Source of the DNA: Candidatus Latescibacterota bacterium
GTDB lineage: Bacteria > Latescibacterota > UBA2968 > UBA8231
Reading direction: 5' to 3'
Assembly (NCBI GenBank): GCA_965217585.1
Contig: OZ244561.1
Coordinates: forward strand, 2,912,001-2,976,000
Length of the DNA stretch: 64,000 nt
In this document: positions 21,216 to 38,441 of the stretch, piece after piece
Numbering within the stretch: position 1 is the stretch's first letter
Layout of the letters: each line of letters starts with the position of its first letter
Translations under genes and position numbers: made by a program
The notes under the pieces: model-generated
What the model saw: only the letters and a program-made list of their open reading frames with translations
Databases searched by the model: none
Told to the model about the DNA's origin: nothing

Positions 21216-21250
21216 TCGGGCAGGCCCCGCACCTAGGCGAGACCTGCCCG
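21216..21250 (-). terminator. Intergenic stem-loop downstream of the WGRIK-tail gene
   Basis: CGGGCAGG ... CCTGCCCG inverted repeat; no clear U-tract. Confidence 0.35.
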
Positions 21251-21279
21251 GAATGGTACTGCGATTGAGATGAAACAGC

Positions 21280-22243: not shown

Positions 22244-22300
22244 GGTTCCGCAACGAGATAAAAATTCAATATAAACGTCCGCAAAAGCGTACGTCAAGGC

Positions 22301-24889
22301 TTAAATCCCCGCGTAAATGGCGATGAAGGATTGGGTTTCGGTGCGCGATGGGGCGTCCTTGAAATTCTTGCGCTCTAGCACCAGCCCAATCACGGTCTGT
22401 AGCTTGTAGCCTTGGTAGGCCGATTCGTTTTTGAACTGAATGCCCCAAGTCAGCGCCGTGAAGTCGTTGGCATCCAAGTCGAAATCGTCGAAGATCAGGT
22501 ACTCTAGGCCCGCTTGTAGCTTGGTGATCTCTAGGACATCGGTGCCCGCCAACAGCGAGAAGAGTTCGGCCAGGGTCGTCCGGCGCTCGTCCGTGAACAG
22601 GTCGCGGCTCTGTTTGATGAACTCGCTCTTCCAGCGCGGTTCTAAATAGAGGGGGCCGAGCGCATGGCGGTAGTGGGCTTTGTTGATCATCCCCAGGAAG
22701 AAATCCGTCTCGGCTAGGCTCCAGCGCTGCCGCCGCTCGGCGTCCATCAATTGGTGAAAGACTACCCAGTTGACCTTGCTTTGTAGGTTTAGCGAAAAGG
22801 CGCGCGCATTGTGGCCGAGGAAGAGCTGGTTGATCCAAGTGTCGCGGGCCAGCAGCGGATCGTCGATCTCAGTCAGCGTGCCGAGGCGCAGCGCGTTGTC
22901 GGGTGCCCACTGCAAGAGCGGGTCGGCGATGTCGTCCTCTACGTGCTTGGTCATGCCGAAGAGGCGCACATCACCGTAGCGCGCCCAGCTCCGGTCGAAC
23001 CGCAGGAGTGCGTACGCACTGTGGTTTTTCTGGTTGGAAGAGATGCGGCCCTCGCGCAGGAGGCCGGCGATGATCTTTAGCTGAGGTGCCAAATAGGTGC
23101 CGACGTACGCGTTGTAGCCTTGGTGGTCGCGCTTGTAGGGGTAATCCGGCTCTTGGTCGTTTTCGTATTGGTCGGTCCAGAAGTTGTTGTTCATGTCAAC
23201 GCCGAAGAGAAATTCGGGCCGATCTACCGCAAAGCGCAGGAAAGGCTCTTCGTAGTCCGGGATCGAGTTGGTGCGCACGCGGCTGTCGTTTTGGTTGATA
23301 TCGGGTACGAAGTCGTTGTTCTGATCCCAACCCGGAAAGACTTGGCGGTCGGGGAAGGCCCAGTCGGCGCGGAAGGTGTCTGGCACCCGGTCTTGGTCGT
23401 CGTTGTCTTCCACTAGATCCATGAGGCTGCGGTCGTTTTGGTAGTCGATGCTGCCGTCGTCTTGGGTGACGAAAGTTTGGGTGTTGTAGCGCGGGTGCAT
23501 ATGATAGGCTTCGCCGTAGATGAAGAAGCGAGACCACTGACGAGACAGATTGAGCATATAGGCTGGCGCGTTGCGCGCACCGACAATGCCGGATGAGGTC
23601 TGGTGTTCTTCGACGAGGATGTTGGGATATTTGCGGTAGTTCCAATTGATGTCGTACTCGCCGTACAGGTCAAAGCCCATCACATCGCTGGCCGCTACCG
23701 TACCGCCGAGGATGTGGGTCGCCGTCGGTAGCCCGGCCTCAAAGCTAATGACGCGCAAGTTAGACAAGTCCACGATGTTGCCCGGCGCTTGCGTCACCAG
23801 CAGAGACACGTCAGAGGTCATCCAGACCTGATAGTCGTTGGCCACTACCAGCCGGAATTCCACTTTGACGATCTCGGTTTTGTCGGCCGCGGCTCGGTTG
23901 ATGAAACTCGCGCTGTCGAAGTCGTAGCGCAGGCGGATTTCGTCGTTGCCGTTGGCCTCGATATAGCCCGGGCGGGGTGCGCCGCCCTCCACCACAGGTT
24001 CAAAGCGGATCTCGCGGCCCGAATCCACGCGGCCATCTCGATAGGTGATGAAGATGTCCGAGCCAGCTGGAAAGTACGCCGCGCCGCCCACGCCGTCGTC
24101 TGGCGAGTCGTCGCGCAGGGCGATTTCGATGCGGGAGATGGTGTGGTTCTGGCCTTGGGTCAGCGACCCGGTTACCCAATTGCTCAACAGAGCCTCTTCC
24201 GAGAGCGAATTGGCTTGATGCGCGTTGGCAGTGTGGATGCCGAGCTCGACGAAGTCGCCGATTTGCACCTCAAAGCGCCCCCCGATCAGAGTGGTGGAAT
24301 TGGTGCGGCGCAGCTCTTGATTGGTGATGCCGCGAGGGGCACTGGCCTGCGCGTAGAGAAACGTGCCCCGGTACTTGTCCATGGCAAAGTCGAACTGCAC
24401 GCCATCGAGGCGCGGTTTGGATAGCACCATGGGCGTCAGCGTGGTGCGGAGATCGCTGCTGATGGTCAGTGCGTAGGCGTATTGCCCTTTTCGCTCGGAG
24501 GCCACCGCGACCTCGGAAAACCAGTTGCGGAAGCGCTGGGCCTCAAACAATACGGTGCCGAATTCCTCGGGGTTGGCCTGAGATACGTTGTATATCAGCC
24601 AGCCCTGATTGAGGAAGTTGCCAAAGGTGTCGTAGAAGTAATCCCCTTCGATGTTGGGACTGACATACCGCTGGTAGGGCACGCGTGCGTAGTTGGTAGT
24701 GCTCCACTGCCGCCAGTGGTGTTCGGCGACCAGCTCTTGGGGCACGTACCAGCGGCGCACCGCCGGGTCCAGGGCCTCCGCGCCTGGGGAAGCCAGCGAT
24801 TGCAGCCCAATTTGAGCTGTGGCCGAGCCGCCGCTTACGGCCCACAAAAGTAGGGCGATCTTGCAGATGTGTTTCGCAGTTTCTGCCAT
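22301..24889 (-). CDS. Putative outer-membrane protein, 862 aa (paralog of 30943..33612)
   Basis: Signal peptide, acidic DNDDQDR/DQNND/DMNNN loops, amphipathic beta-strand-like C-terminus QSFIAIYAGI. Confidence 0.7.
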   Translation of the reverse strand: MAETAKHICKIALLLWAVSGGSATAQIGLQSLASPGAEALDPAVRRWYVPQELVAEHHWRQWSTTNYARVPYQRYVSPNIEGDYFYDTFGNFLNQGWLIYNVSQANPEEFGTVLFEAQRFRNWFSEVAVASERKGQYAYALTISSDLRTTLTPMVLSKPRLDGVQFDFAMDKYRGTFLYAQASAPRGITNQELRRTNSTTLIGGRFEVQIGDFVELGIHTANAHQANSLSEEALLSNWVTGSLTQGQNHTISRIEIALRDDSPDDGVGGAAYFPAGSDIFITYRDGRVDSGREIRFEPVVEGGAPRPGYIEANGNDEIRLRYDFDSASFINRAAADKTEIVKVEFRLVVANDYQVWMTSDVSLLVTQAPGNIVDLSNLRVISFEAGLPTATHILGGTVAASDVMGFDLYGEYDINWNYRKYPNILVEEHQTSSGIVGARNAPAYMLNLSRQWSRFFIYGEAYHMHPRYNTQTFVTQDDGSIDYQNDRSLMDLVEDNDDQDRVPDTFRADWAFPDRQVFPGWDQNNDFVPDINQNDSRVRTNSIPDYEEPFLRFAVDRPEFLFGVDMNNNFWTDQYENDQEPDYPYKRDHQGYNAYVGTYLAPQLKIIAGLLREGRISSNQKNHSAYALLRFDRSWARYGDVRLFGMTKHVEDDIADPLLQWAPDNALRLGTLTEIDDPLLARDTWINQLFLGHNARAFSLNLQSKVNWVVFHQLMDAERRQRWSLAETDFFLGMINKAHYRHALGPLYLEPRWKSEFIKQSRDLFTDERRTTLAELFSLLAGTDVLEITKLQAGLEYLIFDDFDLDANDFTALTWGIQFKNESAYQGYKLQTVIGLVLERKNFKDAPSRTETQSFIAIYAGI

Positions 24890-24897
24890 TTGCTCGC

Positions 24898-26919
24898 TCA
24901 GTAGGCCACAGCTACGGTACCCGCGGCTGCTGAGAGGCCCTTGTCAGTAGTTAGATCGACTTGGTAGAGGTACACGCCTGGGGCGACTAAGTCTCCCTCG
25001 GTGCGACGGCCGTCCCAAACCGCCGCAAAGCTGCCGCTGACGGCTGGCGTGGAGATCACCTCGCGCACTAGCCGGCCGGACAGGTCGAAAATTCGCAGAG
25101 CGATCTGGCGTGGTTCGCCGATGTTGCGCAGATCGTACGAAATCATGGTCTGATCGTTGATCCCGTCGCCATTGGGCGTCAGCGTCGCGGGATGCGCGGT
25201 GACTTTTCGCACGAGTTCGCCGCCGACGGGCGTGCGCACTGATAGGGCGTCGCCGGCAAAGCGGAAAGTCGCATTGCCAGGCCGGACTTGCTGCTTGAGC
25301 TCGGGCTCGGTGCTGTCGTACACCCAACCGGTGAATTCCGCGCCAAAGCGCAGCACCTTGGCGTCGAAGACGACCTCAATGCGGCGCTCGTTGTCGCGCG
25401 GCGCAACAAACGGCTCAAAGCTAATGACGATCCGGTCTTCCTCTAATTGGGGTGGGAAGTCGTCGATGATTTCCCGGCCATCGACCGCGACCGAATGGAC
25501 GGCTTCGGCCGGAACTTGGGTGAAGATCTCCAGCCGGTCGAAGCCCCGGTCGCCGTCTTCGAGTACGGGCCGCACTACATAGGTGAAGGTCTGCGGCTCG
25601 AAGTTCTCGGTCTCAACTGGCCAGATCTCGGCGATCACGTTTTGGGCCGCGGGATCTTCGGCAAACAGCAAGGACATCTCGTCGATGCGCGGCGCTTTGT
25701 TCCCGTCCGAAAACATGACCACTTCTAGCTGCAAGTACTGGCTAGGTCCGGGCGAGAGGAGGGGCGTTCCGTCTTCCCAGCCCACTGCCTCTGGGTTGCG
25801 CAGCCCGGCCGCAAAGTCGTAGGGCGTTGACCAAAAGCTCCAGTTGTCCACGTCGTAGGTCGCTTGGATCTGGCCAAACCGACCCACTTGGTAGGTCGTG
25901 GTGTACTCGTCTTTGGACACCCGCTCAAAGTTACCGGTGCTGCCGATTTTCCAGAACAGATTGGGCTGTGGTGTGGCGCCAGTGCGCGTGCGCAACACGA
26001 GCCGAGTGCCCTCGGGCACTTCGCCCTGCCAGCGGATCTTGCTCCAAGCCACCGGACGGCCAAAATCCAACACGCCCGTGCGATAGGAGGTCTTGGTGAC
26101 GAAGCCCTCGCCGTACACCTCCATTTCGGCGATCTCCCAGGTGCGCTCGGGGTTGACCGGGCGAATGCCGATCCAGCGCAAGTCGCGCGTGGGAAAGCGC
26201 AAGTCCACGACTTGGTCGAGGTTTTCAACGTTGCGCTTTAGGATGTCGAATTCCGGGTCGTTGGTCGAGGTGAGCGAGCGGCTGATGTCATGGTACCAGC
26301 GCTTGCCCGGTGCTTTCTCTTGGGGTGAGGATATAAAAGGCGCGGTGTTATCGGCTACGCCGATTTCGTACCAAGCCAAGTAGTTTTCCTCAAAGCCTGG
26401 TCGCGGATAGAAGCGGATGCGGTTGACTGGCATCTCGGCACCCAAGTTGAGGACCGTGTTTTTTACGTAGCCGATATTGAGGCCAGCTAGGCGCGGTGAG
26501 ATATCGACCGGACGCAAGGTCGCCGTTTCTGGGTCGCCGTCGATCATCACCTGTACTTCTTTGGCCGCCTCGCGGGTATAGCCGGTGGAGACACTCGTGA
26601 AGAGGTTGCCGCCGCGCGCGGTCAGGTTCACGTCTAGCGCGAGGTTGACCGACGGATCGACCCATATTGGCCGGATGGCGTTGTCGTCGTAGGCGATCAT
26701 GGTATCGACGCCTGCTTCCTCCGCGCCGATGGCGATGGGAAGCGTGCCCAAGACCTCGCCTTGGTCGTCAACGATGGAGTACTCGGTCTGCTCGTCGGTG
26801 ATCAGCCCCTGCCAAGAAGTACCCGTCGGGCCGCCGATGTGAAACTCGGCCCGACCCCACACTGCACTGGTGCACCAAGCCGCGAGTACTACGTTCAATA
26901 ACAGCATTCGCTTTAACAC
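24898..26919 (-). CDS. Secreted protein with TPNGDG/FlgD-Ig C-terminal domain, 673 aa
   Basis: Signal peptide, discoidin-like segment (LNLGAEMPVNRIRFYPR), RTRTG, WSFWS, TPNGDGIND, IFDLSGRLV, WDGR, PGVYLY, ends VAVAY. Confidence 0.8.
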   Translation of the reverse strand: MLKRMLLLNVVLAAWCTSAVWGRAEFHIGGPTGTSWQGLITDEQTEYSIVDDQGEVLGTLPIAIGAEEAGVDTMIAYDDNAIRPIWVDPSVNLALDVNLTARGGNLFTSVSTGYTREAAKEVQVMIDGDPETATLRPVDISPRLAGLNIGYVKNTVLNLGAEMPVNRIRFYPRPGFEENYLAWYEIGVADNTAPFISSPQEKAPGKRWYHDISRSLTSTNDPEFDILKRNVENLDQVVDLRFPTRDLRWIGIRPVNPERTWEIAEMEVYGEGFVTKTSYRTGVLDFGRPVAWSKIRWQGEVPEGTRLVLRTRTGATPQPNLFWKIGSTGNFERVSKDEYTTTYQVGRFGQIQATYDVDNWSFWSTPYDFAAGLRNPEAVGWEDGTPLLSPGPSQYLQLEVVMFSDGNKAPRIDEMSLLFAEDPAAQNVIAEIWPVETENFEPQTFTYVVRPVLEDGDRGFDRLEIFTQVPAEAVHSVAVDGREIIDDFPPQLEEDRIVISFEPFVAPRDNERRIEVVFDAKVLRFGAEFTGWVYDSTEPELKQQVRPGNATFRFAGDALSVRTPVGGELVRKVTAHPATLTPNGDGINDQTMISYDLRNIGEPRQIALRIFDLSGRLVREVISTPAVSGSFAAVWDGRRTEGDLVAPGVYLYQVDLTTDKGLSAAAGTVAVAY

Positions 26920-26932
26920 GGTCTTTTCTCCC

Positions 26933-28999
26933 TCAATAGGCTACGCCGACGGTGCGCGTACTGGCGCTAGCGCGCGCATCGCCTTCGATGTTGAGTTGAA
27001 TTAGATAGAGGCCAGGAGCCACGTTCTCACCCTGATCGTCGGTCCCGTCCCACCGCAGTTGGGTCAGGCTTTCCGAGCTGTACACGCCGCTCTGTCCTTT
27101 GATGTTAAAAAGGCGGCGCACCCGGCGGCCCCCTAGGTCGTATATATTGACCGCAATCTGCCCGCCATCGACCGCGAGGACCTCGCACTCCATATCTAAG
27201 ACGTCGTTGATTCCGTCGCCATTGGGCGTGATAACAGATGCGGCGAGGTCAAAGCTGCCCACTAGGCTGCCGCTGTTGACGGCCGGACTCAAGACGGTAG
27301 TGTCCGACTTAAACGAGATGTCGCCTTCGTCCAGCGCAGTGGCGTCTCCGGCTTGGACGCTCTGGAAGGCGTCTTCTTCCAACAGTAATCCCCGGCCCTC
27401 AAAGGCCGTGCTGTACGAGAGGATGCGGCTGACGAAGTGGATCTTCAACACGGTGTTGTGCGCTGCAACTCGCGGGAAGCGCACCGCAAAGCTGCGCTCT
27501 GAGATCGCGGTGATGGCCACGTCGCCCTCGTCGGCGACTGCGTCTTGTACCGCAAAGTTGTGTTCTAGGAGGAACTCACCTTGCGCGTCGATAATTTCAA
27601 TGCGCTCGATGCGATCTATGCGGCTGCCGGTGACTAGCTCAAAGCTGTCGAAGCCCTGCAGATCTCCGCTTTCCATCTCGGCGCGCACGGCATAGACGAA
27701 GGGAATGTCTGCGGCTGCGGGCACCTCGCGTGGAAAGATCTCGCCGACGAGAACATCGGCCAACGCCGGCGTTGTGAAGTCAAAGGAAAACTGCCGCAGG
27801 ATTTTGGCCGATTCTAGGTCGTCGGACTGAAAGTCAACCCGGAACTGGAAGTAGCGGCGCGGCCCAGGCGAGAGGACCAACGCGCCCTCGCTGCCGGTGC
27901 CGGCGACCGGATCGTAGGGCGAAGTCCATGGACTCCAATTGGCCAAGTCGTTGCGCACGGGACCGCGTTCCCACACATCGGCGGGGCCTCCTTTAGCTGG
28001 CAGGTCGAGGTACTCGTCGCGCAAGAGTGGCTGGTCGGGATTATCGACTGAGAAGGATATCTCCTCGGCGTCTTGACGCCCCACGCGCTTGCGCGTATAG
28101 GCGAAGGGCGACAAGTCTCTGCCGCTGCGAGTGCGGATGTGCATCTGTACGGCGCTTGCCTGCCCAACGGTCTCCTCCAGCCAGCGCAAGCGTCCCCAAT
28201 TGGCCGGGGTGCCCATGTCGATAATCGGCGAGATGTACTGCACGGTGGGGAAGAAGCCCTCGCCAAAGACTTGGAATTTCTCCACCTCAAAGGGGATGGA
28301 TGAGGTGGCGCGCAGGCGGATGAAGCGCAAAAAGCGCGGCGGGTTGATTTCGATGGTGGAGATCGGATCGGTGCTGTTGGTGCGCACCGCAAAGGTTTCC
28401 CATATCGGGTTGCCGGCCTCGGTCAACACTTGGCCGTCGTTGACCTGCACCTCGAAGTTTTTGAGGAAATCCTCCTGAAAGGGCGTCGATGGTGACGGGA
28501 AGACCGTATTGCGCGGGAAGAAGCGGACTTGGTTGACGCCAAAGCGCGCGCCCAAATCGAGCACGAGCAAGGTGCCCAACACGTCCCGTCCCTTGCGCTC
28601 GAAGGCCCCGCCAGAGGGGTCGGGCGATACGATCTGCGCGAGGATGTTTTGCAACTGGGACTCGGCGAGGTCGAAAACGGTTGGAGCGCGGATGCTGCCA
28701 CCGCGCTCGGCGATTTCAGTGGCGAGGTTTTGGCCCTCCTGTACTCGGCGGGGCAGGATGCTAGCGGGAAAATCCGCGCTGGCGAAATCGACGAGATTGA
28801 CCGGCGCGACGCCGATTTCGGTGATGTTGGGATCCAAAGTGGAGCGGTACTCCGGCTCGATGGTTTGCACCGCGCCTCCAGCTTCCACTTCTCCCTCCCA
28901 GCTAATCTGGCCGTCTTGGCCGATGAGCAATACTTGACGCCCCTGTGAATCGCTGCCGTGCAAAAGCACCAATGCACCTATGAGAAGCAAGCGCTTCAT
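26933..28999 (-). CDS. Secreted protein with TPNGDG/FlgD-Ig C-terminal domain, 688 aa
   Basis: Start MKRLLLIG at 28999; LDLGARFGVNQVRFFPR, RTRSG, WSPWT, TPNGDGIND, WDGTD, PGLYL, ends VGVAY. Confidence 0.8.
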   Translation of the reverse strand: MKRLLLIGALVLLHGSDSQGRQVLLIGQDGQISWEGEVEAGGAVQTIEPEYRSTLDPNITEIGVAPVNLVDFASADFPASILPRRVQEGQNLATEIAERGGSIRAPTVFDLAESQLQNILAQIVSPDPSGGAFERKGRDVLGTLLVLDLGARFGVNQVRFFPRNTVFPSPSTPFQEDFLKNFEVQVNDGQVLTEAGNPIWETFAVRTNSTDPISTIEINPPRFLRFIRLRATSSIPFEVEKFQVFGEGFFPTVQYISPIIDMGTPANWGRLRWLEETVGQASAVQMHIRTRSGRDLSPFAYTRKRVGRQDAEEISFSVDNPDQPLLRDEYLDLPAKGGPADVWERGPVRNDLANWSPWTSPYDPVAGTGSEGALVLSPGPRRYFQFRVDFQSDDLESAKILRQFSFDFTTPALADVLVGEIFPREVPAAADIPFVYAVRAEMESGDLQGFDSFELVTGSRIDRIERIEIIDAQGEFLLEHNFAVQDAVADEGDVAITAISERSFAVRFPRVAAHNTVLKIHFVSRILSYSTAFEGRGLLLEEDAFQSVQAGDATALDEGDISFKSDTTVLSPAVNSGSLVGSFDLAASVITPNGDGINDVLDMECEVLAVDGGQIAVNIYDLGGRRVRRLFNIKGQSGVYSSESLTQLRWDGTDDQGENVAPGLYLIQLNIEGDARASASTRTVGVAY

Positions 29000-30939
29000 A
29001 AGCTTTCCCCGAGAATTTTTTCTGCCAATGCCTTTTGCTCCACTTCGACTCGCTGCTGGAGTTGGGCTCGCTGCCTTGCCCGCTGATAGTGCGCCGCTGC
29101 GTCCCGTGCCTCTACGTCCCGTCCCAATTGGCGGTACGCCTTGCTTAAGTGGCCTTGGACCCGCCAGTTGTGAGGCTCTAGTTCGGCGAGGCGCAGCCAA
29201 AGGGCTAGGGCTTCGCTGGGCTGTCCCTGCTCTAACAGTACTTCACCCAATAGGAGCAGCCCCGCGCGGTGGTCTGGTGCCAGCGCTAGGGCTCGCGAGA
29301 GCAGCGACTCGGCCGCTGCTAGCTGCCCGTTGTGCCGCAAGAGTGCGGCTGCTTCCACCCGCGCCCGCACGCCATAGACCGGACTGTCTAGGAGCTGGCG
29401 ATAGGTTCGCTCGGCGTCTGCAATCTGTCCGCTGGCAGCGTAGGCACGCGCTAGTTGGTAGCGCACCCGGCTGCTGTCTGGGCTCAACGTTAGCAGCCGC
29501 TCGTAGGATTGCACGGCCTCGTCGAGTGCGCCGCTTGTCAGTTGCGCGTCCCCCAAGCGCCCGAGTAGGGCCTCCTGTCCGCTGCTTGCGACGAGCTGTT
29601 GGTAGATTGTGCGCGCTTGTTGGGGACGGCCCACCGCCATGTAGCGATCGCCGAGTGCCCGCTGCCCGCGCTCGTCGGCGGGCCAGCGCGCGACGAATGC
29701 TCGGCTGATGCCGAGTGCTCGCTCGGGTTTGCCGCTGGCGTCGTAGAGCGCCGCCAAGGCCCAATACACATTCTTGTCGGAACTGCCCGCGGCCAAGGCC
29801 TGTTCGTATGCGGCAATCGCCGTGGCCGTCATGCCCAACTCTTCATAGGCGCGACCCAAATAGCGGTGCTGCGAGGCTTGCGCCGCTCGGTCCATGGCTG
29901 GCGTGCTGGCGTTGACCAATGCCGCGACTAGGACCAAACCCGCCACGGCTACCCCCTTCCACGCCCAAGACAACTGCGCCAGTTGCCCGACCCCGCTCAC
30001 CGCAAAGAGCAAGAGCACGGGTACCAGCACCATGCGCGTCTCGGCATGGGCGCCGTAGAGCGCAGTTCCGATTGCGCCGGTTGCGACAAACAGCAGGGCG
30101 AGCAAAGCGCCCCGCTCTCGCGCCGCCAAGGCAAAACCCACGCCCAATAGCGCAAGCGGCACGACTAAGCCGAAGGGAAACGCCAGACCCCATTTCCATA
30201 GTAGGGCCGCTAGGACAGCTGAATCGCCGCGCGCGTGATACATATCCAGCGCGGGCAAGTGCTCTCCGCCGCGTACGAGGAGGTCGGGCGAGCCGCCCGC
30301 ACTCGTGGCCATCCCCCAAAAATACCACAGCGCGAACGCACAAGCCGTTCCCAGCGCACAGGCCCAACACGTCCGCTGCTTTCCTCCTATCCACAGCCAC
30401 CACAGCACGGCTGGCGTGAAGAGCGCGACTTGCGGGGCAGCTAGCAAGCAAAGGGCCAGCAAAAGCCCGACTCCGAAGAACGCCCTTCCACTGCTTTGCT
30501 GATCGGTCCACAAAAGCGCTGCCAACAGCGAGAGCACCAGAAATACCGCGAGGACCGGGGGCAGTAATGCGCCGGTGAAATAGAGGGCTGGCCCGTACAG
30601 GGCCGCGCATAAAGCCGCGATAAGTCCCGTGCCCGGCCCCCAGAGCGCACGGCCGATTAGGGCCAACAGCACACAACTAGCCGCGCCTAGCAGGACTTGG
30701 ACGTAGCGGGGTGCCAGCCCGGTGGCGACGAGGCCGCGCAAAAAGAGCGGGTACAAGGGGCTGGCAACCGCGGCGTTCCCCTCCCCCCTAGCGGCTTCGA
30801 CATAGGGCCGGCTCGCCGCTGTCGGCACCTCCAAGAAGGGGTTTTGCTCGACCTCATCCAGATAGGTCAGGCGCGGCCAAAGGGCCATGAGCGCGATGCC
30901 GATGACGGCTGCGCCAAAGTTGTCGTTGCGCCAAATCAC
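28996..30939 (-). CDS. Membrane glycosyltransferase (GT-C/PMT-like) fused to TPR repeats
   Basis: Multiple TM helices with SPLYPLFL; C-terminal TPR-like repeats (LGRAYEELG, LGDAQL, LARAYAASG). Confidence 0.75.
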   Translation of the reverse strand: MIWRNDNFGAAVIGIALMALWPRLTYLDEVEQNPFLEVPTAASRPYVEAARGEGNAAVASPLYPLFLRGLVATGLAPRYVQVLLGAASCVLLALIGRALWGPGTGLIAALCAALYGPALYFTGALLPPVLAVFLVLSLLAALLWTDQQSSGRAFFGVGLLLALCLLAAPQVALFTPAVLWWLWIGGKQRTCWACALGTACAFALWYFWGMATSAGGSPDLLVRGGEHLPALDMYHARGDSAVLAALLWKWGLAFPFGLVVPLALLGVGFALAARERGALLALLFVATGAIGTALYGAHAETRMVLVPVLLLFAVSGVGQLAQLSWAWKGVAVAGLVLVAALVNASTPAMDRAAQASQHRYLGRAYEELGMTATAIAAYEQALAAGSSDKNVYWALAALYDASGKPERALGISRAFVARWPADERGQRALGDRYMAVGRPQQARTIYQQLVASSGQEALLGRLGDAQLTSGALDEAVQSYERLLTLSPDSSRVRYQLARAYAASGQIADAERTYRQLLDSPVYGVRARVEAAALLRHNGQLAAAESLLSRALALAPDHRAGLLLLGEVLLEQGQPSEALALWLRLAELEPHNWRVQGHLSKAYRQLGRDVEARDAAAHYQRARQRAQLQQRVEVEQKALAEKILGESL

Positions 30940-30942
30940 GCG

Positions 30943-33612: not shown

Positions 33613-33630
33613 GGCGCTCTCTTTTCGCCC

Positions 33631-36600
33631 CTAATAGGCTACCGCGATAAGGTGGGATCGCCGTTGTCCGGCGCTGGCTTCGACGTCGATGTCCACGTCG
33701 ATCTGGCAGATGTAGAGTCCGGGTGGCACGACGCGGCCGCGGTCGTCTTTCCCGTCCCAGATAAAGCGTTGGTGCCCGCCTTGGGCGGTGCCCTCTAGCA
33801 GGCGCATGGGCCGGCCGTCGAGTGCCCAGATGCGGACGGCGGCTGGCCGTTCGGCATAGACTTTGAACAGCGAAAACTCGATTTGGGCGACGTCGTTTAC
33901 GAGGTCGCCGTTGGGCGTAAAAGGATTGGGCGCGACCGAGATGTCGGCGACGACCTGCACGGCACCGAGCGCGGCGATCGACAGGGTTTGCGACGGCCGC
34001 AGCGCGGTGGCGTCGGCGGCGTCGGCGGGCTGATAGGGCGTGCCGGCCGCTTGGTTGCGCACCGCCACCTTCAGCTTGGTGCCGTGGAGGAAGACTTTGG
34101 CCGCAAAGCGCAGGCGCACGAGGCGGCCTTGACCGACGACCCACCCTCTGGCACGGCCTAGCCGGCTGTACTGGGCCGCGCTGAGCGTGTCTCCGGCCTC
34201 GTCGAAAAGCGTCTGGCTGCCCAAACCGACGACCTTGCGGAAGTAGCGCACGGGTCCTTGGGACTCGGGCGGCAACTCGTCGTAGGCGGCGCGATCCACT
34301 TCCACTAGCTCTTCTCCGGCAATGCGGAAGTAGCGCACCGCGCCGCGCACCGCGTCTGGGAGCAGGGCATGCGAGGTCGCCGTCAGGAGCTGGCCGTCGA
34401 TGCTGGTGGGCACTTCCTCGCCATCGGCAGCCGTGCGAAAATATAGCTGGGGTAGCGCATCGGTGTCGCTGCGGGCGACCTCCGGGAGGCGCACTAGGAG
34501 CGAGTCGCCTTGCAGCATCTGGCCGTCGGTGCTTGCCAGATCCAAGAGCGACTGCGGCGCTCCAGATGCGAACTGCTCCTCGGTGCCTATTGCCACATCA
34601 ATAAGCTGCATGTCGAGTCCCGGATCGGCGCTGATGAGCATCTCGTCGAACCCAAGGCTGCGGACCGAGGTGGGCTGCTCTAGGAATTGGGGCTGGACGA
34701 AAACCTCGAAGGTGTCCAGAACCCCCACTTGGGCTTCGGGCGGCCAGACTTCGGCTCGCAGCCCGAGGGCGACCGGGGTGTGTAGCTCTACGGAGATGCT
34801 CTGTAGCGCTGGTGCGATTTGGCGGTCCTCGCTGAGCAGGCGGGCCTGGATTTGCATGAACTTGCGCAAGCTGGGCGACGTTACCGGGTCGCCGGGTTGC
34901 TGGTACTGCTGGCTCCAAGCACTCCAGCCCGGGCCTATTGCAAAGGATGTGTCGATTGGCCCTTTGAGGAAGGCGAGGAGCTTCTTGTGCTCGGCTGCGG
35001 TCTTTTCAATGCCATTGCTGTCGTAGAAGCGTATCTGCTGGATGAGTTGGTCGCCGGTGCGGGTGCGAATCTCGACCTTGGTGCCCGGCGGCGTTTGGGC
35101 TTCCCAGTGGATACTGCCCAAGGTCACGAGCCCAGGCAGTTCAATCAGAGCAGACTCCAACTCGATTTCTGCGGGCACGCCCTTGGCAAACAGCATCAGT
35201 TCGTTGAAGCTAGACCAGAAGCGGTCGGTGCGGTTTTGGGTGTCGCCGATGAAGTTGGCGAAGGTCAATAAATCGAGGAAGCGCACCTTGACCACGGGGT
35301 TTTGCAGATCGTTGAGGTGACTGAAATTCCCGTTATCGACGTTTTTTATCCGTTCCGGCGGTGTAATCGCGCGCCAGCGCAACTTGCCTTGGGCGTCGCG
35401 TTCTCCGGTTGATGACCGCATCTGATAGCCGCGGATGTTGCCGCCGACGACGCGGATTTGGTCCAACCATACCGTGCCGCCAATGTCGATGGTCAGCACG
35501 TTACCACCCGGGTTGAGGGGGTCTTGGGTGGGTTGCTGATAACGGCTGCTGATATCCCCGTCGAAAGCCGGTGCCGGCGTCTTGCCAGCCGAGGTCAGGT
35601 CCAAAGTGCCGCCACCTTCGACTAGGCCGAGGCTGATGTTGTCTCCCCACCCCCACACTTCGACCTCGGCTAGGCGCGGCAATTCCCGGCGGTAGAATTC
35701 TCGCCGTCCGCGGCGTTCTTCCTCCAAGGACTCGTAGGTCTCGGCGTCCACCGGCTCTTCGCGGCCGGCGAAGTCGCGTACGAAGTGGACGATGTCGCCG
35801 CGTTCATGCGTTGTCAACGCCTCCCATGCGGCTTGGTCGATTTGCTCGGCCCGCCCGCCGCGCGTGTCGGTAATTACGATGCGGATGGTTTCGAGGACCT
35901 TGCCAGTCCAGTCCGGGTCGGCGCTGTTTTGCCGCAGCTTCTTGACACTGCTGATGCCGCTGGAGGCATCTACGAGGCCGAGGTTGACCAGGGCCCCCTC
36001 AGTTGCGGCTGCACTTTCAAAAAAGAAGGCGCGCTGCTGGGTATTGGGGCCTTCGTGGGGGACAAACAGCTCAAAGCTAACCTTGCGATCGTCGGTAAAC
36101 GATAGAGTCTGGTTCCGTGCCAAGAGGAGGAGATATTTGAAGAACGGATCGCCTAACTCCTCTTCGACAAAGCGTACAGAAATGCCCTCTACGGGTACAG
36201 CGCGGCCCAGATCGACCTCGACCCACCACTGCTCGATGGGATCGTCTGGGTCGGGCTCCCAAAAGGTGGTCGGATCGCCGTCGACGATGCGGGCCGCCAT
36301 CTCGATGTTGGAGCCAGCGCGGCTGACTCCGGGCCGCACCAGATAGTCGTAGACGAACTTTTTCTGGGCGTCTTGGATGGGTTGGCCGAGCACATCTACT
36401 TTCAGGGTGCTATCCACATTGAGGATGCGCGGGGCTTTGTTGGTGATCACTACCGGACGGGCGATACTGGGGTCGGAGAGGACGTTGTAGATCGAGCGCA
36501 GGTGCCGCGGACGCACCGCGCCCGAGTTGTCGATAGTGGTCAGATGTTCGGGTTTTTTCCAGTGCTCCCAGTGGCTGCGCCCGGATACGACGATGCGATC

Positions 36601-36690
36601 GTCGACGATGTCGTACCCTTGTTGTGCGCTGGCTGGCAGCCATGCCCACAACAGGCAGTACGCGATGGCACCCCATTTTATTCTTATCAC
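33631..36690 (-). CDS. Large secreted protein with discoidin-like and TPNGDL/FlgD-Ig C-terminal domain, 1019 aa
   Basis: Signal peptide, DGDPTTFW...WWVEVDLG, IRTRTG, WSAWS, PNPFTPNGD, WDGKD, PGLYI, ends IAVAY. Confidence 0.8.
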   Translation of the reverse strand: MIRIKWGAIAYCLLWAWLPASAQQGYDIVDDRIVVSGRSHWEHWKKPEHLTTIDNSGAVRPRHLRSIYNVLSDPSIARPVVITNKAPRILNVDSTLKVDVLGQPIQDAQKKFVYDYLVRPGVSRAGSNIEMAARIVDGDPTTFWEPDPDDPIEQWWVEVDLGRAVPVEGISVRFVEEELGDPFFKYLLLLARNQTLSFTDDRKVSFELFVPHEGPNTQQRAFFFESAAATEGALVNLGLVDASSGISSVKKLRQNSADPDWTGKVLETIRIVITDTRGGRAEQIDQAAWEALTTHERGDIVHFVRDFAGREEPVDAETYESLEEERRGRREFYRRELPRLAEVEVWGWGDNISLGLVEGGGTLDLTSAGKTPAPAFDGDISSRYQQPTQDPLNPGGNVLTIDIGGTVWLDQIRVVGGNIRGYQMRSSTGERDAQGKLRWRAITPPERIKNVDNGNFSHLNDLQNPVVKVRFLDLLTFANFIGDTQNRTDRFWSSFNELMLFAKGVPAEIELESALIELPGLVTLGSIHWEAQTPPGTKVEIRTRTGDQLIQQIRFYDSNGIEKTAAEHKKLLAFLKGPIDTSFAIGPGWSAWSQQYQQPGDPVTSPSLRKFMQIQARLLSEDRQIAPALQSISVELHTPVALGLRAEVWPPEAQVGVLDTFEVFVQPQFLEQPTSVRSLGFDEMLISADPGLDMQLIDVAIGTEEQFASGAPQSLLDLASTDGQMLQGDSLLVRLPEVARSDTDALPQLYFRTAADGEEVPTSIDGQLLTATSHALLPDAVRGAVRYFRIAGEELVEVDRAAYDELPPESQGPVRYFRKVVGLGSQTLFDEAGDTLSAAQYSRLGRARGWVVGQGRLVRLRFAAKVFLHGTKLKVAVRNQAAGTPYQPADAADATALRPSQTLSIAALGAVQVVADISVAPNPFTPNGDLVNDVAQIEFSLFKVYAERPAAVRIWALDGRPMRLLEGTAQGGHQRFIWDGKDDRGRVVPPGLYICQIDVDIDVEASAGQRRSHLIAVAY

Positions 36691-36702
36691 GATGGCACCT
36701 CC

Positions 36703-38307
36703 TTACAGGCGCTCGGCGAATAAGGCGACTTGGCTTTCGCGCTCGGCGCGCAGGCGTTGGATGAGCGCGTCCATGAGTTCGTTCCGGCGCCTTACTTCCA
36801 AGATGCCCCGCGCTCGCGCTCGCGCTTGGGCGAAGGGTTGGATGTCGCCGCCCTCCTTTTGGCGCACTCGGAATACGGCAAATTGGTCTAGCACCTCCAC
36901 TGGCCCACCCCATTCGCCGACCTCTGCGGCAAAGGCCGCGTCCACGAGCTGGGGATAGCGCGCCCGCACCACCTTGCGCAGACGCAACGCCCCGTCGTCG
37001 TGCGGGTCGCCGTGGGTTTCGACGCCCGGTCGGGCCAACAGCTCGGCGACGGTGCTGCCGTTTGCGAGGGCTTCGCGCAACTGTTGGGCCTGCTCGCGGG
37101 TGGGCGCGAGGAGCTGGTTGATGTGGACGGATTCAGCCGTGCGGAAGCGCGTCTTGTTCGCCTCGTAGTACGCGGCGACTTCTTCCTCGCTGGGGACGGC
37201 CTTTGTCGCTGTTTCTGCCTTGGTGAGCTGTTGCAAAACGAGGGCCTTGCGCTTGCGCTCGCGCCACTCGGCGAATTCGGCTTCTCGATCCCATCCGCGC
37301 CGTTGGGCTGCCGCGGTCATCAGATAGGCTGGCAAGAGCGCGGCGCGGGCCAACGAGACGACCTGGGCGCTGTCTTGCAACGCGCCCCGGAAGCCGACCG
37401 AGCGCAGGTCGTAGAGGTATTCGCCCAAGGGAATCGCTCCGCCGTCAAAGCGGTAGAGGGGAAGCGCGGCGAGCGAGTCGGCGAGATCCGGCTCGGCCAG
37501 CAAGGCTTGCAGGCCCTCGTGGTCCAACTGGAGGCCCAAGGAGCGGCTCAGGGTTTCCACTTCGATTTGCAGGCGACTCTGCCACTTTTCGCGGCGTGCC
37601 GCGCTGGCCGCTTCTTGCGCGTAGTCGGCCTTGTCGGCCGGTCGGTCTTCGACAAAGCGGTAGATTTGCCAGCCGCCCGCTATGGGTAGCGGCGCGGCGA
37701 TTTGGCCGACCGGCAGGGAGAGGAAGGTCTGCGGCGGAATGGCAAAGCGCTGCGCTTGGGTGCGCCCAATCCAACCGACGACTCCGTCGCCCTGTGGAGC
37801 GAAAAGGTCGTTGGCCGCAAAGTGCTGCGCGAGTTCGGCGAAAGGCTCGCCCGCGTGCAGGGCCTGCAATACGCGGTCCACATCTTGCTGCTGCCGCACC
37901 AGAATCCGCGCAAAGAGCCGCTCGCGGTCGAATCCCATATCGACGAAGGTGCGCTCGACTTCCTCGGGTGTCACCTCGATTTGGGGAGCGAGTACTTCGG
38001 CTTGGTAGCGCTGGGAGAGTTGCTTGCGGACGAGGGCGTTTAGCTGGTAGCGGACCTCGTCGCTTTGCTCGATCCCCCTAGCGCGGGCCTCTTGCAGCAG
38101 CAGTTCCTGATCGACGAGAGACTGTAGGTGATCGCGCGCGGATTCGCTCTGCAAGCCGGACGGCAAGCGCTCGACAAAGCGCAGGTACTCGGCCTTGGTG
38201 AGGGCCACGTCGCCGACTTGGGCCACGACTGTGTCGTCTGGCGCGCAGCCGAACAGGGTTAAGAGGGCGATAGCGCGCCACAGGGAGCGGGGAGTAGCGA
38301 TAAACAT
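36703..38307 (-). CDS. Peptidyl-prolyl isomerase (SurA/PrsA-like, two parvulin-like domains), probable lipoprotein
   Basis: Lipobox-like LFGC, VVAQVG, LVDQELLLQEARARGI, GEPFAELAQHF, EEVAAYYEANK; start codon uncertain. Confidence 0.8.
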   Translation of the reverse strand: MFIATPRSLWRAIALLTLFGCAPDDTVVAQVGDVALTKAEYLRFVERLPSGLQSESARDHLQSLVDQELLLQEARARGIEQSDEVRYQLNALVRKQLSQRYQAEVLAPQIEVTPEEVERTFVDMGFDRERLFARILVRQQQDVDRVLQALHAGEPFAELAQHFAANDLFAPQGDGVVGWIGRTQAQRFAIPPQTFLSLPVGQIAAPLPIAGGWQIYRFVEDRPADKADYAQEAASAARREKWQSRLQIEVETLSRSLGLQLDHEGLQALLAEPDLADSLAALPLYRFDGGAIPLGEYLYDLRSVGFRGALQDSAQVVSLARAALLPAYLMTAAAQRRGWDREAEFAEWRERKRKALVLQQLTKAETATKAVPSEEEVAAYYEANKTRFRTAESVHINQLLAPTREQAQQLREALANGSTVAELLARPGVETHGDPHDDGALRLRKVVRARYPQLVDAAFAAEVGEWGGPVEVLDQFAVFRVRQKEGGDIQPFAQARARARGILEVRRRNELMDALIQRLRAERESQVALFAERL

Positions 38308-38441
38308 GCTGTTTGATTTAATCAACTGCTAGGCGGGTGTCAAGTTTTTTGCCCATAGGACTAACTGCATGTAATTCTTGTTGTTTAGAAGCTATCTGAT
38401 GCGCCGTGAAGCTCCCCCACCGCCGTAGAGACGGGCCAATC

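What the first reader, a model, noticed from the sequence alone, without database searches (positions are those of the whole stretch)
22301..38307. Candidate undescribed cell-surface assembly/secretion system: CTD-tagged paralogs, dedicated OM proteins, chaperone and GT-TPR
Seen: seven tightly spaced co-oriented genes: PPIase lipoprotein > CTD protein (1019 aa) > OM-like protein (889) > GT-C/TPR > CTD protein (688) > CTD protein (673) > OM-like protein (862). The three CTD proteins share W..(I/L).W, RTR(T/S)G, WS.W(S/T), SP, E(I/V)(W/F)P, GFD, TPNGD..ND, WDG, PG.Y and a terminal (V/I)(A/G)VAY. Known: in Bacteroidota, TPNGDG type-B T9SS substrates are encoded beside their own PorP/SprF beta-barrel. 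Inference: an analogous but distinct module, duplicated in tandem, in which each large barrel shuttles or anchors its CTD partners, assisted by folding and glycosylation factors.
Basis: partly seen in the sequence, partly recalled or inferred. Interest (0 to 1): 0.82.

Follow-up and report, generated by a model that had tools for sequence, protein, structure and literature searches.

The report
Amplified lectin and giant-barrel surface module
An uncultured Latescibacterota bacterium carries about fifty copies of an apparently undescribed gene module that pairs sugar-binding-type surface proteins bearing a type IX secretion tail with a very large outer-membrane barrel of no known family, probably to display glycan-binding proteins on the cell surface.

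Summary
Seven tightly packed minus-strand genes are there, and the conserved unit is larger: an eighth gene (X, 21280-22176) belongs to it, and a DUF6785 membrane protein (39984-41996) is a looser neighbour.

The two 'OM-like' proteins are 59% identical, match no Pfam or NCBIfam model, and model as large beta-barrels. The three 'CTD proteins' are CBM32-type lectin and beta-sandwich chains. Each ends in a T9SS-type C-terminal domain that scores as Pfam CHU_C (type B) in two of the three.

Gene order is conserved in many Latescibacterota MAGs. This genome holds 81 barrel paralogs, 141 tagged proteins and about 50 loci. Those families plus DUF6785 make up 11.4% of the genome.

SprA and PorU are present, with a PorV-like neighbour below its cut-off. 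No PorP/SprF was found. Across 61 genomes of the phylum, barrel, tag and X co-occur, SprA is near-universal and DUF6785 is uncoupled.

Best reading (0.45): the barrel is the cognate carrier or anchor for its lectins, the role PorP/SprF plays in Bacteroidota. Binding is untested.

An uptake (PUL-like) reading is weaker: no plug, no TonB parts and no glycoside hydrolases nearby.

My paper searches found no description. This scan met the same cassette before, elsewhere in this genome and in other genomes.

The parts
39984..41996 (-). D: DUF6785-DUF6784 polytopic membrane protein (670 aa). A frequent neighbour of the module, not a core partner.
   Evidence: Pfam DUF6785 391 bits and DUF6784 100 bits. 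It lies directly upstream of the PPIase in orthologous loci. The genome has 78 paralogs. It is phyletically uncoupled from the barrel.
36703..38325 (-). P: SurA/PrsA-like parvulin PPIase, probable lipoprotein (540 aa).
   Evidence: Rotamase_2 77 bits, plus weaker Rotamase and SurA_N_3 matches. The genome has 41 paralogs. 33 of 40 lie within 3 genes of an O or C gene.
33631..36690 (-). C1: 1019-aa secreted protein with an F5/8 type C domain and a divergent type-B-like CTD.
   Evidence: F5_F8_type_C 33.2 bits. CHU_C reaches only 14.9 bits. The PNGDxxND, WDG, PGxY and VAY motifs are present.
30943..33612 (-). O1: 889-aa outer-membrane beta-barrel of an unnamed family.
   Evidence: No Pfam or NCBIfam match. 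AF2 model pLDDT 78.2, pTM 0.78, nearly all strand. Every fold match listed is a membrane beta-barrel.
28996..30939 (-). T: polytopic membrane domain (PMT_2/GT-C-like) fused to a C-terminal TPR array (647 aa).
   Evidence: Many TPR families match; PMT_2 scores 17-18.6 bits. At family level PMT_2 matches 14 of 16 N-terminal halves. T lies directly downstream of the central barrel in 56 of 74 related loci.
26933..28999 (-). C2: 688-aa secreted protein with a type-B-like T9SS CTD.
   Evidence: CHU_C 29.4 bits against a cut-off of 27; FlgD_ig 23.1 bits.
24898..26919 (-). C3: 673-aa secreted protein: CBM32-like domain, beta-sandwich domains, then a type-B-like T9SS CTD.
   Evidence: CHU_C 35.1 bits. 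AF2 model pLDDT 88.3. Residues 88-273 match CBM32 modules (Z 13.7). Residues 565-673 match the CTDs of PorU (Z 12.7) and PorZ (Z 10.6).
22301..24889 (-). O2: 862-aa paralog of O1.
   Evidence: 59% identity to O1 over 884 alignment columns.
22268..22297 (-). Promoter-like site in the 124-nt gap between O2 and X.
   Evidence: 10 of 12 consensus matches. The number of such sites in the region is not above that in shuffled sequence, so this is weak.
21280..22176 (-). X: 298-aa secreted protein, CBM9-like by an Atlas lead, ending in the conserved tail TAVExxSWGRIKxxF.
   Evidence: 35 paralogs, 32 of them within 3 genes of an O or C gene. The tail is seen. Atlas score 0.98 to clusters that carry CBM9_1. 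X co-occurs with the barrel in 33 of 36 barrel-positive genomes and in 0 of 25 barrel-negative ones.
21217..21250 (-). Terminator-like hairpin about 30 nt after the stop codon of X; the probable end of the operon.
   Evidence: 14-pair stem with 11 G-C pairs. This is a consensus match only.

Best explanation
This is one locus of a Latescibacterota-specific, heavily amplified cell-surface module.

Proposed path:
1. The C proteins are exported by Sec. They are chains of a CBM32-type lectin domain and beta-sandwich domains ending in a type-B-like T9SS C-terminal domain.
2. The genome's single general T9SS translocon (SprA, with PorU and a PorV-like barrel) carries them across the outer membrane.
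3. The giant barrel encoded directly downstream (O) receives them and holds them at the surface. O would thus take the role that the small PorP/SprF carrier or anchor barrels play for type-B cargo in Bacteroidota.
4. The PPIase lipoprotein helps fold the barrel or the cargo in the periplasm. In this locus subtype the PMT_2/TPR membrane protein probably O-glycosylates them.
5. X, a CBM9-like protein with its own conserved C-terminal tail, is a further partner of the barrel.
6. The finished complex presents sugar-binding modules. A repertoire of about 50 such complexes lets the cell bind many different glycans, for capture or for attachment.

Shown here: the gene content, the folds, the tag class, the synteny, the amplification and the phyletic co-occurrence.

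Inferred: export by SprA, binding of C to O, glycosylation by T, and sugar binding.
For: Tag class and fold:
- C2 and C3 exceed the Pfam CHU_C (type B) cut-off, at 29.4 and 35.1 bits against 27.
- The C3 model (pLDDT 88.3) has a C-terminal domain that superposes on the CTDs of PorU (Z 12.7, rmsd 2.4, 99 residues aligned) and PorZ (Z 10.6). It also has a CBM32 domain (Z 13.7, rmsd 2.5, 123 aligned).

Synteny:
- 101 of 141 tagged genes lie within 5 kb of a barrel gene, against 461 of 5798 for all genes.
- 34 of 54 close-subfamily barrels have a tagged gene directly upstream on the same strand, and 8 more have another barrel there.
- In 74 related loci from other MAGs, 59 have C directly upstream of the central barrel, with a median gap of 18 nt.

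Barrel:
- AF2 gives pLDDT 78.2 and pTM 0.78, and only membrane barrels appear among the fold matches.

T9SS background:
- SprA_N scores 80.3 bits and PorU 627.5 bits. A PorV-like gene lies next to PorU at 153.8 bits, below its cut-off of 250.
- Neither PF11751 nor TIGR03519 (PorP/SprF) finds a match in the genome.

Phyletic pattern over one sample of 61 genomes:
- Barrel in 36.
- CHU_C in 33, of which 32 are barrel-positive.
- X in 33, all barrel-positive.
- SprA_N in 55, including 24 of the 25 barrel-negative genomes.

Known biology:
- Type-B cargo is usually encoded beside a cognate PorP/SprF carrier or anchor (PMC9143113 abstract; PMC12618676 abstract and section 10).

Expression hint:
- Contigs from sponge metatranscriptome libraries lie on X, O2, C3, C2/T, O1 and P with few differences.
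Against: - No test here shows that C binds O.
- O shares nothing detectable with PorP/SprF and is about three times its length (PF11751 model 273 positions). It also shows nothing significant to the genome's own SprA, PorU or PorV.
- The PorP/SprF searches had silent controls, so their absence is not proven. Three further PorV-like barrels exist in the genome and could serve as carriers instead.
- NCBIfam's stricter type-B model is not reached: TIGR04131 scores 22.5 bits against a cut-off of 35. C1 misses CHU_C at 14.9 bits.
- Four barrel-positive genomes show no CHU_C match at E<=1e-6: G060, G003, G042 and G044. G060 has 91 first-look barrel candidates and G003 has 22.
- 40 of 141 tagged genes lie more than 5 kb from any barrel.
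- GldL and GldM were not found (controls silent).
- A barrel this large is not needed merely to anchor a domain, which hints at another or an additional role.
Confidence: 0.45

Rival explanations
1. Nutrient-uptake locus that works like a SusC/SusD PUL. The surface lectins (C, X) capture glycans or glycoconjugates. The giant barrel is the outer-membrane import channel. DUF6785 or the nearby ABC transporter carries the products across the inner membrane. This can coexist with the anchor role.
For: - C carries CBM32 modules and X looks CBM9-like.
- The locus families (C, O, D, P, X, T) take up 11.4% of the genome, a scale typical of nutrient-acquisition repertoires.
- A sugar-type SBP with two permeases lies downstream of X, after a PhyH gene.
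- Sugar-oxidation-type enzymes recur beside ten sampled loci: 4 GFO_IDH_MocA, 3 HpcH aldolases, ThuA and a xylose-isomerase-like TIM barrel.
- Sulfatases are a recurrent neighbour family with 8 members.
- DUF6785 is the fourth most frequent neighbour family, with 37 members.
Against: - O1 and O2 show no plug or TonB-dependent receptor match at E<=10.
- None of 88 flank proteins in 10 loci is an ExbB, ExbD or TonB match, and none is a glycoside hydrolase family match.
- DUF6785 is phyletically uncoupled from the barrel. It is multi-copy in 24 of 25 barrel-negative genomes and missing in 0/13 terms from family f9, where all 13 genomes have the barrel.
- Only 33 of 73 D genes lie within 3 genes of O, C, P or X.
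Confidence: 0.25
2. Private translocon. Each barrel, with its PPIase and TPR protein, is a small dedicated export pore for its own tagged cargo, echoing the SprA-PPI-SprE extended translocon.
For: The set of a giant barrel, a PPIase and a TPR protein mirrors SprA (36 strands), PPI and SprE (passages of PMC10994853). Gene coupling is tight. Five of the 36 barrel-positive genomes lack a SprA_N match, and one of them is 96% complete.
Against: - SprA is present in 31 of 36 barrel-positive genomes and in the window's own genome.
- The O profile shows no significant similarity to SprA.
- No motor genes lie beside 10 sampled loci.
- T occurs in only about 8 loci of this genome (plus the window's own).
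Confidence: 0.1
3. Envelope architecture or adhesion array. The barrels are structural outer-membrane proteins, like SlpA of Deinococcus, and the lectins are adhesins for a host or for particles. No transport or carrier role is involved.
For: SlpA is the top Foldseek match (E 1.2e-9) and reaches Z 11.6 in the second look. Runs that hold the stretch include sponge and coral metagenomes. The lectin repertoire fits attachment.
Against: The SlpA match is tied with FimD, VDAC and porins, its TM-score is 0.23, and no SlpA_C Pfam match appears. A structural protein would not be expected in 81 diverged copies, each tied to its own cargo genes.
Confidence: 0.1
4. Exopolysaccharide or glycoconjugate export, with a GT-C/TPR synthase-like protein working with a barrel.
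For: T combines a PMT_2-like membrane domain with TPR repeats. PgaA, BcsC and PelB barrels appear among the fold matches.
Against: T is found in only about 8 of roughly 50 loci. No polymerase, flippase or nucleotide-sugar genes appear in the flanks. The fold matches to exporters are no better than those to other barrels.
Confidence: 0.03

Closest known systems
Type-B CTD cargo with a cognate PorP/SprF-like carrier or anchor in the Bacteroidota T9SS (SprB-SprF of Flavobacterium johnsoniae; PG1035-PorP of Porphyromonas gingivalis)
   Same: The cargo carries a CHU_C-class C-terminal beta-sandwich domain. The outer-membrane barrel gene lies immediately downstream of the cargo gene. There are many specific cargo/barrel pairs per genome. 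A general SprA translocon is present.
   Different: The barrel is about 870-890 aa, of an unnamed family with no PorP/SprF similarity, and has a roughly 125-residue acidic D/N-rich loop and an inserted beta-rich segment. There are about 50 loci here, against 12 type-B substrates in F. johnsoniae (PMC12618676 abstract). Up to three cargo genes precede each barrel. The module adds a PPIase, a CBM9-like tail-tagged protein and sometimes a GT-C/TPR protein. It occurs outside Bacteroidota. Binding is untested.
SusC/SusD polysaccharide utilisation loci (utilisomes) of Bacteroidota; features recalled from established knowledge
   Same: Dozens of paralogous loci per genome are each built round one outer-membrane barrel and surface glycan-binding proteins, with variable catabolic genes nearby.
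   Different: The barrel has no plug and no TonB-dependent receptor domain. There is no SusD-like lipoprotein. The binding proteins are T9SS-tagged rather than lipoproteins. No glycoside hydrolase was found among 88 flank proteins of 10 loci.
SprA-PPI-SprE extended T9SS translocon (PMC10994853)
   Same: It combines a giant outer-membrane barrel, a peptidyl-prolyl isomerase subunit and a TPR protein.
   Different: The O profile shows no significant sequence similarity to SprA. The barrel is far smaller (SprA has 36 strands and about 2100 aa here). The TPR protein here is a polytopic PMT_2-like membrane protein rather than a lipoprotein. The genome keeps its own SprA.
Other very large outer-membrane barrels: Deinococcus SlpA (8ae1, 7zgx), MtrB, LptD, FimD/PapC ushers
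   Same: The overall large-barrel fold matches (Foldseek E 1e-9 to 1e-7; VIA Z about 10-12).
   Different: TM-scores are about 0.2. No family stands above the others, and there is no sequence relationship.
GT-C glycosyltransferases fused to TPR repeats, such as the eukaryotic TMTC protein O-mannosyltransferases (recalled, not tested)
   Same: A PMT_2-type polytopic domain is followed by a TPR array, and the neighbouring substrates are rich in beta-sandwich domains.
   Different: The window's own copy is below the Pfam cut-off. Catalytic residues and the donor substrate were not examined.

Membership tests
T9SS type-B cargo / PorP-SprF carrier system | The C-terminal domain matches the type-B CTD model of Pfam (CHU_C, PF13585) over its cut-off | tested here: met
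   C3 scores 35.1 bits and C2 29.4 bits against a cut-off of 27. C1 reaches only 14.9 bits. Genome-wide there are at least 150 matches, with 150 of 260 candidates scored.
T9SS type-B cargo / PorP-SprF carrier system | The C-terminal domain reaches NCBIfam TIGR04131 (T9SS type B sorting domain) | tested here: not met
   C3 scores 22.5 bits against a cut-off of 35. C1 and C2 have no match at E<=0.01.
T9SS type-B cargo / PorP-SprF carrier system | The CTD has the beta-sandwich fold of T9SS CTDs | tested here: met
   In the C3 model, residues 565-673 match the PorU CTD (6za2_B: Z 12.7, rmsd 2.4, 99 aligned) and the PorZ CTD (5m11: Z 10.6, 91 aligned).
T9SS type-B cargo / PorP-SprF carrier system | The adjacent barrel belongs to the PorP/SprF family (PF11751, TIGR03519) | tested here: not met
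   O1 and O2 give no such Pfam match at E<=10 and no NCBIfam match. The genome gives no match to either model, though the controls were silent.
T9SS type-B cargo / PorP-SprF carrier system | T9SS translocon and attachment components are present in the genome (SprA, PorU, PorV) | tested here: met
   SprA_N scores 80.3 bits in a 2153-aa frame. PorU scores 627.5 bits against a cut-off of 420. The adjacent PorV-like gene scores 153.8 bits, below its cut-off of 250.
T9SS type-B cargo / PorP-SprF carrier system | A GldL/GldM (PorL/PorM) motor is present | tested here: inconclusive
   TIGR03517 and TIGR03513 give no match, but the controls rang nowhere.
T9SS type-B cargo / PorP-SprF carrier system | The cargo CTD physically binds its cognate barrel | not testable with these tools
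   This needs co-purification, cross-linking or a structure.
SusC/SusD polysaccharide utilisation locus | A TonB-dependent SusC-like barrel with a plug domain | tested here: not met
   O1 and O2 give no Plug or TonB_dep_Rec match at E<=10. The fold matches to SusC, RagA and BtuB (Z 7.8-9.2) are no better than those to other barrels.
SusC/SusD polysaccharide utilisation locus | A SusD-like lipoprotein and glycoside hydrolases in the locus | tested here: not met
   None of 88 flank proteins of 10 loci matches a SusD-like or glycoside hydrolase family at E<=1e-5. There are none among the window ORFs scanned either.
SlpA-type outer-membrane barrel (Deinococcus) | A sequence or fold match that stands above other barrels | tested here: inconclusive
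   No Pfam match. Foldseek ranks it first at E 1.2e-9 but with TM 0.23. VIA gives Z 11.6, tied with FimD at 12.0 and VDAC at 12.1.
GT-C glycosyltransferase, PMT_2 (PF13231), for T | The Pfam PMT_2 score is over the cut-off of 26.1 | tested here: inconclusive
   The window's T scores 18.6 bits. Among 16 N-terminal halves of the family, 14 match at E<=0.1 and 7 exceed the cut-off.
CBM32 / F5-8 type C carbohydrate-binding module, for C | The galactose-binding-like beta-sandwich fold or a Pfam match | tested here: met
   C1 scores 33.2 bits on F5_F8_type_C against a cut-off of 28.2. Residues 88-273 of the C3 model match many CBM32 structures at Z 11-13.7. Sugar binding itself was not tested.
CBM9-like module, for X | A Pfam CBM9_1 match or a fold match | tested here: inconclusive
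   X gives no Pfam match at E<=10 and no PDB sequence match. The Atlas feature search scores 0.98 to a cluster in which 13% of members carry CBM9_1, and 0.93 to one in which 100% do.

The most novel reading that the evidence does not exclude
The modules are a new kind of outer-membrane machine. T9SS-delivered lectins and a tail-tagged CBM9-like protein dock onto, or into, a plug-less barrel of a new family. Together they form a glycan-capture and uptake complex that in Latescibacterota fills the ecological place of SusC/SusD utilisomes, but is built from unrelated parts and needs no TonB.
Probability: 0.3. Interest if true: 0.88.

Novelty: new variant of a known kind. Interest (0 to 1): 0.72.

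Why it matters
T9SS reviews and papers listed in my searches call the system specific to Bacteroidota (abstracts listed). Type-B cargo handling has been studied only with small PorP/SprF barrels.

Here a different phylum has a phylum-wide SprA (55 of 61 sampled genomes). Several of its lineages also have a hugely amplified cargo-plus-barrel module built on a barrel family with no annotation anywhere. That family has 1266 clusters at 50% identity with E<=1e-3 in a library of 1.84 billion representatives.

If the barrel is the carrier, type-B recognition can be solved by an unrelated and much larger protein. If it is also a channel, it is a new route of nutrient capture.

Either way it accounts for a large share of the more than one tenth of this uncultured, sponge- and coral-associated bacterium's genome that these families occupy. 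It also gives testable parts: tag, barrel and lectin.

Tried and rejected
1. Complex prediction of O1 (residues 56-889) with the C1 CTD (residues 900-1019), each with its own alignment. Result: no answer, score 0.00 against a mark of 0.32, and the partner's own fold was uncertain. This counts neither for nor against binding.

2. Profile searches of the O, D and X alignments against PDB sequences. Results: one spurious nanobody match at E 0.12 for O, and none for D or X. The T profile returned only TPR proteins.

3. Fold searches for O gave no family that stands out. I therefore dropped SlpA as a specific relative.

4. Local HMM of the O family against the genome's SprA, PorU and PorV. Only a 13-residue D/N-rich motif in SprA appeared, with a negative score.

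5. The GldM, GldL and PorP models gave nothing in the own genome, but the controls were silent too, so absence is not shown.

6. I rejected the idea that DUF6785 is the inner-membrane half of the system, after the phyletic test.

7. I weakened the idea of a classical PUL: none of the 88 flank proteins is a glycoside hydrolase match.

8. Metatranscriptome contigs leave parts of the 20-kb stretch without cover, and run X18 mostly ran on unlike. I draw nothing from the gaps or from depth.

9. The overall counts of promoter-like and terminator-like sites do not exceed those in shuffled sequence. Only the hairpin after X is noted.

10. Paper searches for Latescibacter with 'type IX secretion' and 'outer membrane', for Latescibacter with T9SS, and for DUF6785 returned no paper. 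Two broader searches listed no paper holding Latescibacter. Subscription-journal papers are not covered by these searches.

Full report
**What is in the window.**

Seven long ORFs lie head to tail on the minus strand:

| Gene | Coordinates | Length |
|---|---|---|
| P | 36703-38325 | 540 aa |
| C1 | 33631-36690 | 1019 aa |
| O1 | 30943-33612 | 889 aa |
| T | 28996-30939 | 647 aa |
| C2 | 26933-28999 | 688 aa from the ATG |
| C3 | 24898-26919 | 673 aa |
| O2 | 22301-24889 | 862 aa |

- The gaps between them run from a 4-nt overlap to 18 nt.
- A 124-nt gap follows, and then an eighth co-oriented gene, X (21280-22176, 298 aa). A 14-pair hairpin follows its stop.
- Upstream of P lie a HEPN gene and a nucleotidyltransferase gene (38895-39636), and then a DUF6785/DUF6784 membrane protein, D (39984-41996).

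**What the parts are.**

- P is a parvulin-type PPIase (Rotamase_2, 77 bits) with a probable lipobox.
- C2 and C3 pass the Pfam cut-off for CHU_C, the type-B T9SS signal domain, at 29.4 and 35.1 bits against 27. They also touch FlgD_ig.
- NCBIfam's TIGR04131 is not reached: 22.5 bits against 35.
- C1 has an F5/8 type C domain (33.2 bits). Its tail is more divergent (CHU_C 14.9 bits) but keeps the PNGDxxND, WDG, PGxY and VAY motifs.
- An AF2 model of C3 built on 37 sequences has pLDDT 88.3.
  - Residues 88-273 superpose on CBM32 modules. The best is 4a42_B, with Z 13.7, rmsd 2.5 and 123 residues aligned.
  - Residues 565-673 superpose on the CTDs of PorU (6za2_B: Z 12.7, rmsd 2.4, 99 aligned) and PorZ (5m11: Z 10.6).
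  - Foldseek otherwise finds multi-domain beta-sandwich proteins at low TM-scores. No catalytic domain was recognised.
- O1 and O2 are 59% identical and match nothing in Pfam or NCBIfam, even at E<=10.
- An AF2 model of O1 built on 36 sequences has pLDDT 78.2 and pTM 0.78, and is almost all strand.
  - Residues 245-403 form an inserted beta-rich segment.
  - Residues 490-614 form a long loop full of invariant D and N residues. I read that loop as calcium-binding by inference only.
- Every fold match for O1 is a membrane beta-barrel, and none stands out.
  - Foldseek is led by SlpA at E 1.2e-9 with TM 0.23, followed by MtrB, LptD and FimD.
  - The wide VIA search gives a best Z of 11.0.
  - The second look gives SlpA Z 11.6, FimD 12.0 and VDAC 12.1.
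- T has a TPR array and a polytopic N-terminal half. The window's copy scores 17-18.6 bits on PMT_2. Among 16 family members, 14 match at E<=0.1 and 7 exceed the cut-off of 26.1.
- X has a signal peptide and no Pfam, NCBIfam or PDB sequence match. The Atlas places it next to clusters that carry CBM9_1 (score 0.98).
- X and its paralogs end in TAVExxSWGRIKxxF.

**Amplification.**

The window lies in a 7.32-Mb single-contig genome. Named relatives of O are all 'Candidatus Latescibacteria/Latescibacterota'.

- Local phmmer against all ORFs of 80 aa or more finds 81 O, 179-194 C, 41 P, 55 T (TPR-driven) and 35 X. These fall into 97 clusters, about 50 of which hold both O and C.
- An HMM of the O family finds the same 81 ORFs.
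- O splits into a close subfamily of 54 and a distant one of about 25 that often stands in tandem triples.
- With score thresholds, C, O, D, P, X and T together cover 11.4% of the genome.
- The window's subtype, with T directly after the barrel, occurs 7 more times in the genome.
- Within 12 kb of O genes the recurrent families are:
  - C, 134 members
  - O, 78
  - X, 39
  - DUF6785, 37
  - PPIase, 35
  - TPR proteins, 35
  - FG-GAP/ASPIC, 29
  - an unknown 270-aa family, 19
  - PhyH, 18

  After these come DUF4159 and sulfatases. 326 genes are singletons.

**The tag and its link to the barrel.**

- PNGDxxND lying 55-115 aa from the C-terminus marks 141 of 5798 called genes, and none in a control window. 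Nearly all of these end in hydrophobic-x-Y: VAY 61, VVY 40.
- 101 of the 141 lie within 5 kb of an O gene, against 461 of 5798 for all genes.
- 34 of the 54 close-subfamily barrels have such a gene directly upstream on the same strand, and 8 more have another barrel there.
- The genome also holds a separate class of 69 Por_Secre_tail (type A) matches. One is a CotH protein in this window.

**Conservation elsewhere.**

A scan of one genome per species returned 75 loci, nearly all titled Latescibacterota. Some are titled Gemmatimonadota, which may reflect binning.

- The string D-P-C-O-T-C-C-O-X recurs. DPCOTCCOX is the commonest pattern, at 7 loci.
- 19 loci contain PCOTCCO. Many loci are cut by contig ends or by the 10-kb flank.
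- Of 74 loci with a central O, 59 have C directly upstream (median gap 18 nt) and 56 have T directly downstream.
- In L047 the gap between D and P is 77 nt. The HEPN/nucleotidyltransferase pair in the window therefore looks like an insertion.
- The O profile finds 1266 clusters at 50% identity (E<=1e-3) among 1.84 billion representatives. 464 of them are at E<=1e-30.

**T9SS background and phyletic pattern.**

The genome has SprA (SprA_N 80.3 bits in a 2153-aa frame) and PorU (627.5 bits). A PorV-like gene lies next to PorU at 153.8 bits, below its cut-off. The PorP/SprF, GldL and GldM models find nothing, but their controls rang nowhere.

Over one evenly drawn sample of 61 genomes of the phylum:

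| Feature | Genomes with it | In the 36 O-positive | In the 25 O-negative |
|---|---|---|---|
| O barrel | 36 (20 of 28 genera) | – | – |
| CHU_C | 33 | 32 | 1 |
| X | 33 | 33 | 0 |
| SprA_N | 55 | 31 | 24 |
| DUF6785 | 47 | 23 | 24 |

- DUF6785 is in 0 of 13 genomes of family f9, where all 13 carry O.
- Related genomes are not independent, so I give counts only.
- The pattern says that O, the type-B-like tag and X travel together on top of a general SprA. D does not travel with them.

**Mechanism.**

In Bacteroidota, type-B cargo leaves the translocon on a cognate PorP/SprF-like barrel, which then anchors it. The two genes are usually neighbours (PMC9143113, abstract; PMC12618676, abstract, section 10 and passages; PMC10994853, passages).

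The module here reproduces that logic with an unrelated and far larger barrel. I therefore favour O as the cognate carrier or anchor of its lectins, at a confidence of 0.45. P would act as a periplasmic folding helper, T as a probable protein O-glycosyltransferase in one locus subtype, and X as a further partner. All of these roles are inferred.

The uptake reading (0.25) draws on the CBM modules, the scale of the repertoire and the nearby sugar-type transporters and oxidoreductases. Several results count against it:
- No plug or TonB-dependent receptor match.
- None of 88 flank proteins is a TonB, ExbB or ExbD match, and none is a glycoside hydrolase match.
- D is uncoupled from the barrel.

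A private-translocon reading echoes SprA-PPI-SprE. It conflicts with the presence of SprA in 31 of 36 barrel-positive genomes and the lack of any SprA similarity.

**Expression hint.**

Contigs from two sponge metatranscriptome libraries of one study lie on X (21463-21949, 2-3 differing letters). Short pieces also lie on O2, C3, C2/T, O1 and P. A third study's run gives pieces at 95-99% likeness. DNA carry-over cannot be excluded, and depth cannot rank genes.

**Novelty.**

Three paper searches returned no paper: Latescibacter with 'type IX secretion' and 'outer membrane', Latescibacter with T9SS, and DUF6785. Two broader searches listed no paper holding Latescibacter. Subscription journals are outside that library.

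Earlier notes of this scan describe the same cassette in other windows of this genome and in other genomes. I re-derived its features independently. I differ from the note that reads DUF6785 as part of an uptake route.

Noticed in passing
window 38895-39636 (-): A HEPN gene (38895-39380) overlaps a nucleotidyltransferase gene (39274-39636). This looks like a HEPN/MNT toxin-antitoxin-type pair inserted between D and P. In the orthologous locus L047 the gap between D and P is only 77 nt.
   Followed up: partly
genome-wide; window 21280-21330 for X: The tail TAVExxSWGxIK sits at the C-terminus of 69 genes, against 2 in a control window. 32 of them are X paralogs and 37 are other small exported-looking proteins. 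It looks like a sorting or docking tag with no known processing enzyme.
   Followed up: partly
own genome C1:3678889-3685326 and 60 other genomes of the phylum: SprA_N is found in 55 of 61 sampled Latescibacterota genomes, and in 39 of the 40 high-quality ones. T9SS papers listed in my searches call the system specific to Bacteroidota.
   Followed up: partly
window 50666-53494 (+): A 942-aa protein has a CotH kinase-like domain, a lamin-tail domain and a type-A-like CTD (FlgD_ig and Por_Secre_tail). Its tag class differs from that of the module's C proteins.
   Followed up: no
window 20331-21338, 47098-47865, 47884-48720 (all -), 54168-54986 (+): The window has four PhyH-type dioxygenase genes. 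The genome has 56 phmmer hits, and PhyH is a recurrent neighbour of the modules with 18 members.
   Followed up: partly
genomes G007-G059 of families f2 and f3 (handles): DUF6785/DUF6784 proteins are strongly multi-copy (28-89 first-look candidates) in Latescibacterota families that lack the barrel, the type-B-like tag and X. This family is therefore an expansion in its own right.
   Followed up: partly
genomes G060 and G003 (handles): These genomes have many barrel candidates (91 and 22) but no CHU_C match at E<=1e-6. Either their cargo tails have diverged beyond the Pfam model, or their barrels work with other partners.
   Followed up: no
own genome, e.g. C1:3752202-3760726, 4386437-4397201, 7029875-7042853: A distant barrel subfamily of about 25 members stands in tandem doubles and triples, in one case followed by a 1086-aa TPR/YfiO-like protein. 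An earlier scan note reports ExbB/ExbD next to such cassettes, which I did not check.
   Followed up: no
window 56889-60718 (+): AAA_21/AAA_15 ATPase, DUF4435 and AbiEi_2-like genes lie here. They look like a defence or toxin-antitoxin island unrelated to the module.
   Followed up: no
window 495-3719 (-): A 1074-aa ORF has no Pfam match at E<=0.001.
   Followed up: no
X alignment A4, about 40 residues before the C-terminus: A twin-cysteine (CC) is the majority residue pair in X-family members. I noted it only because twin cysteines in the SprF tail link it to GldK (PMC12635249, outline). Conservation is below 90%.
   Followed up: no
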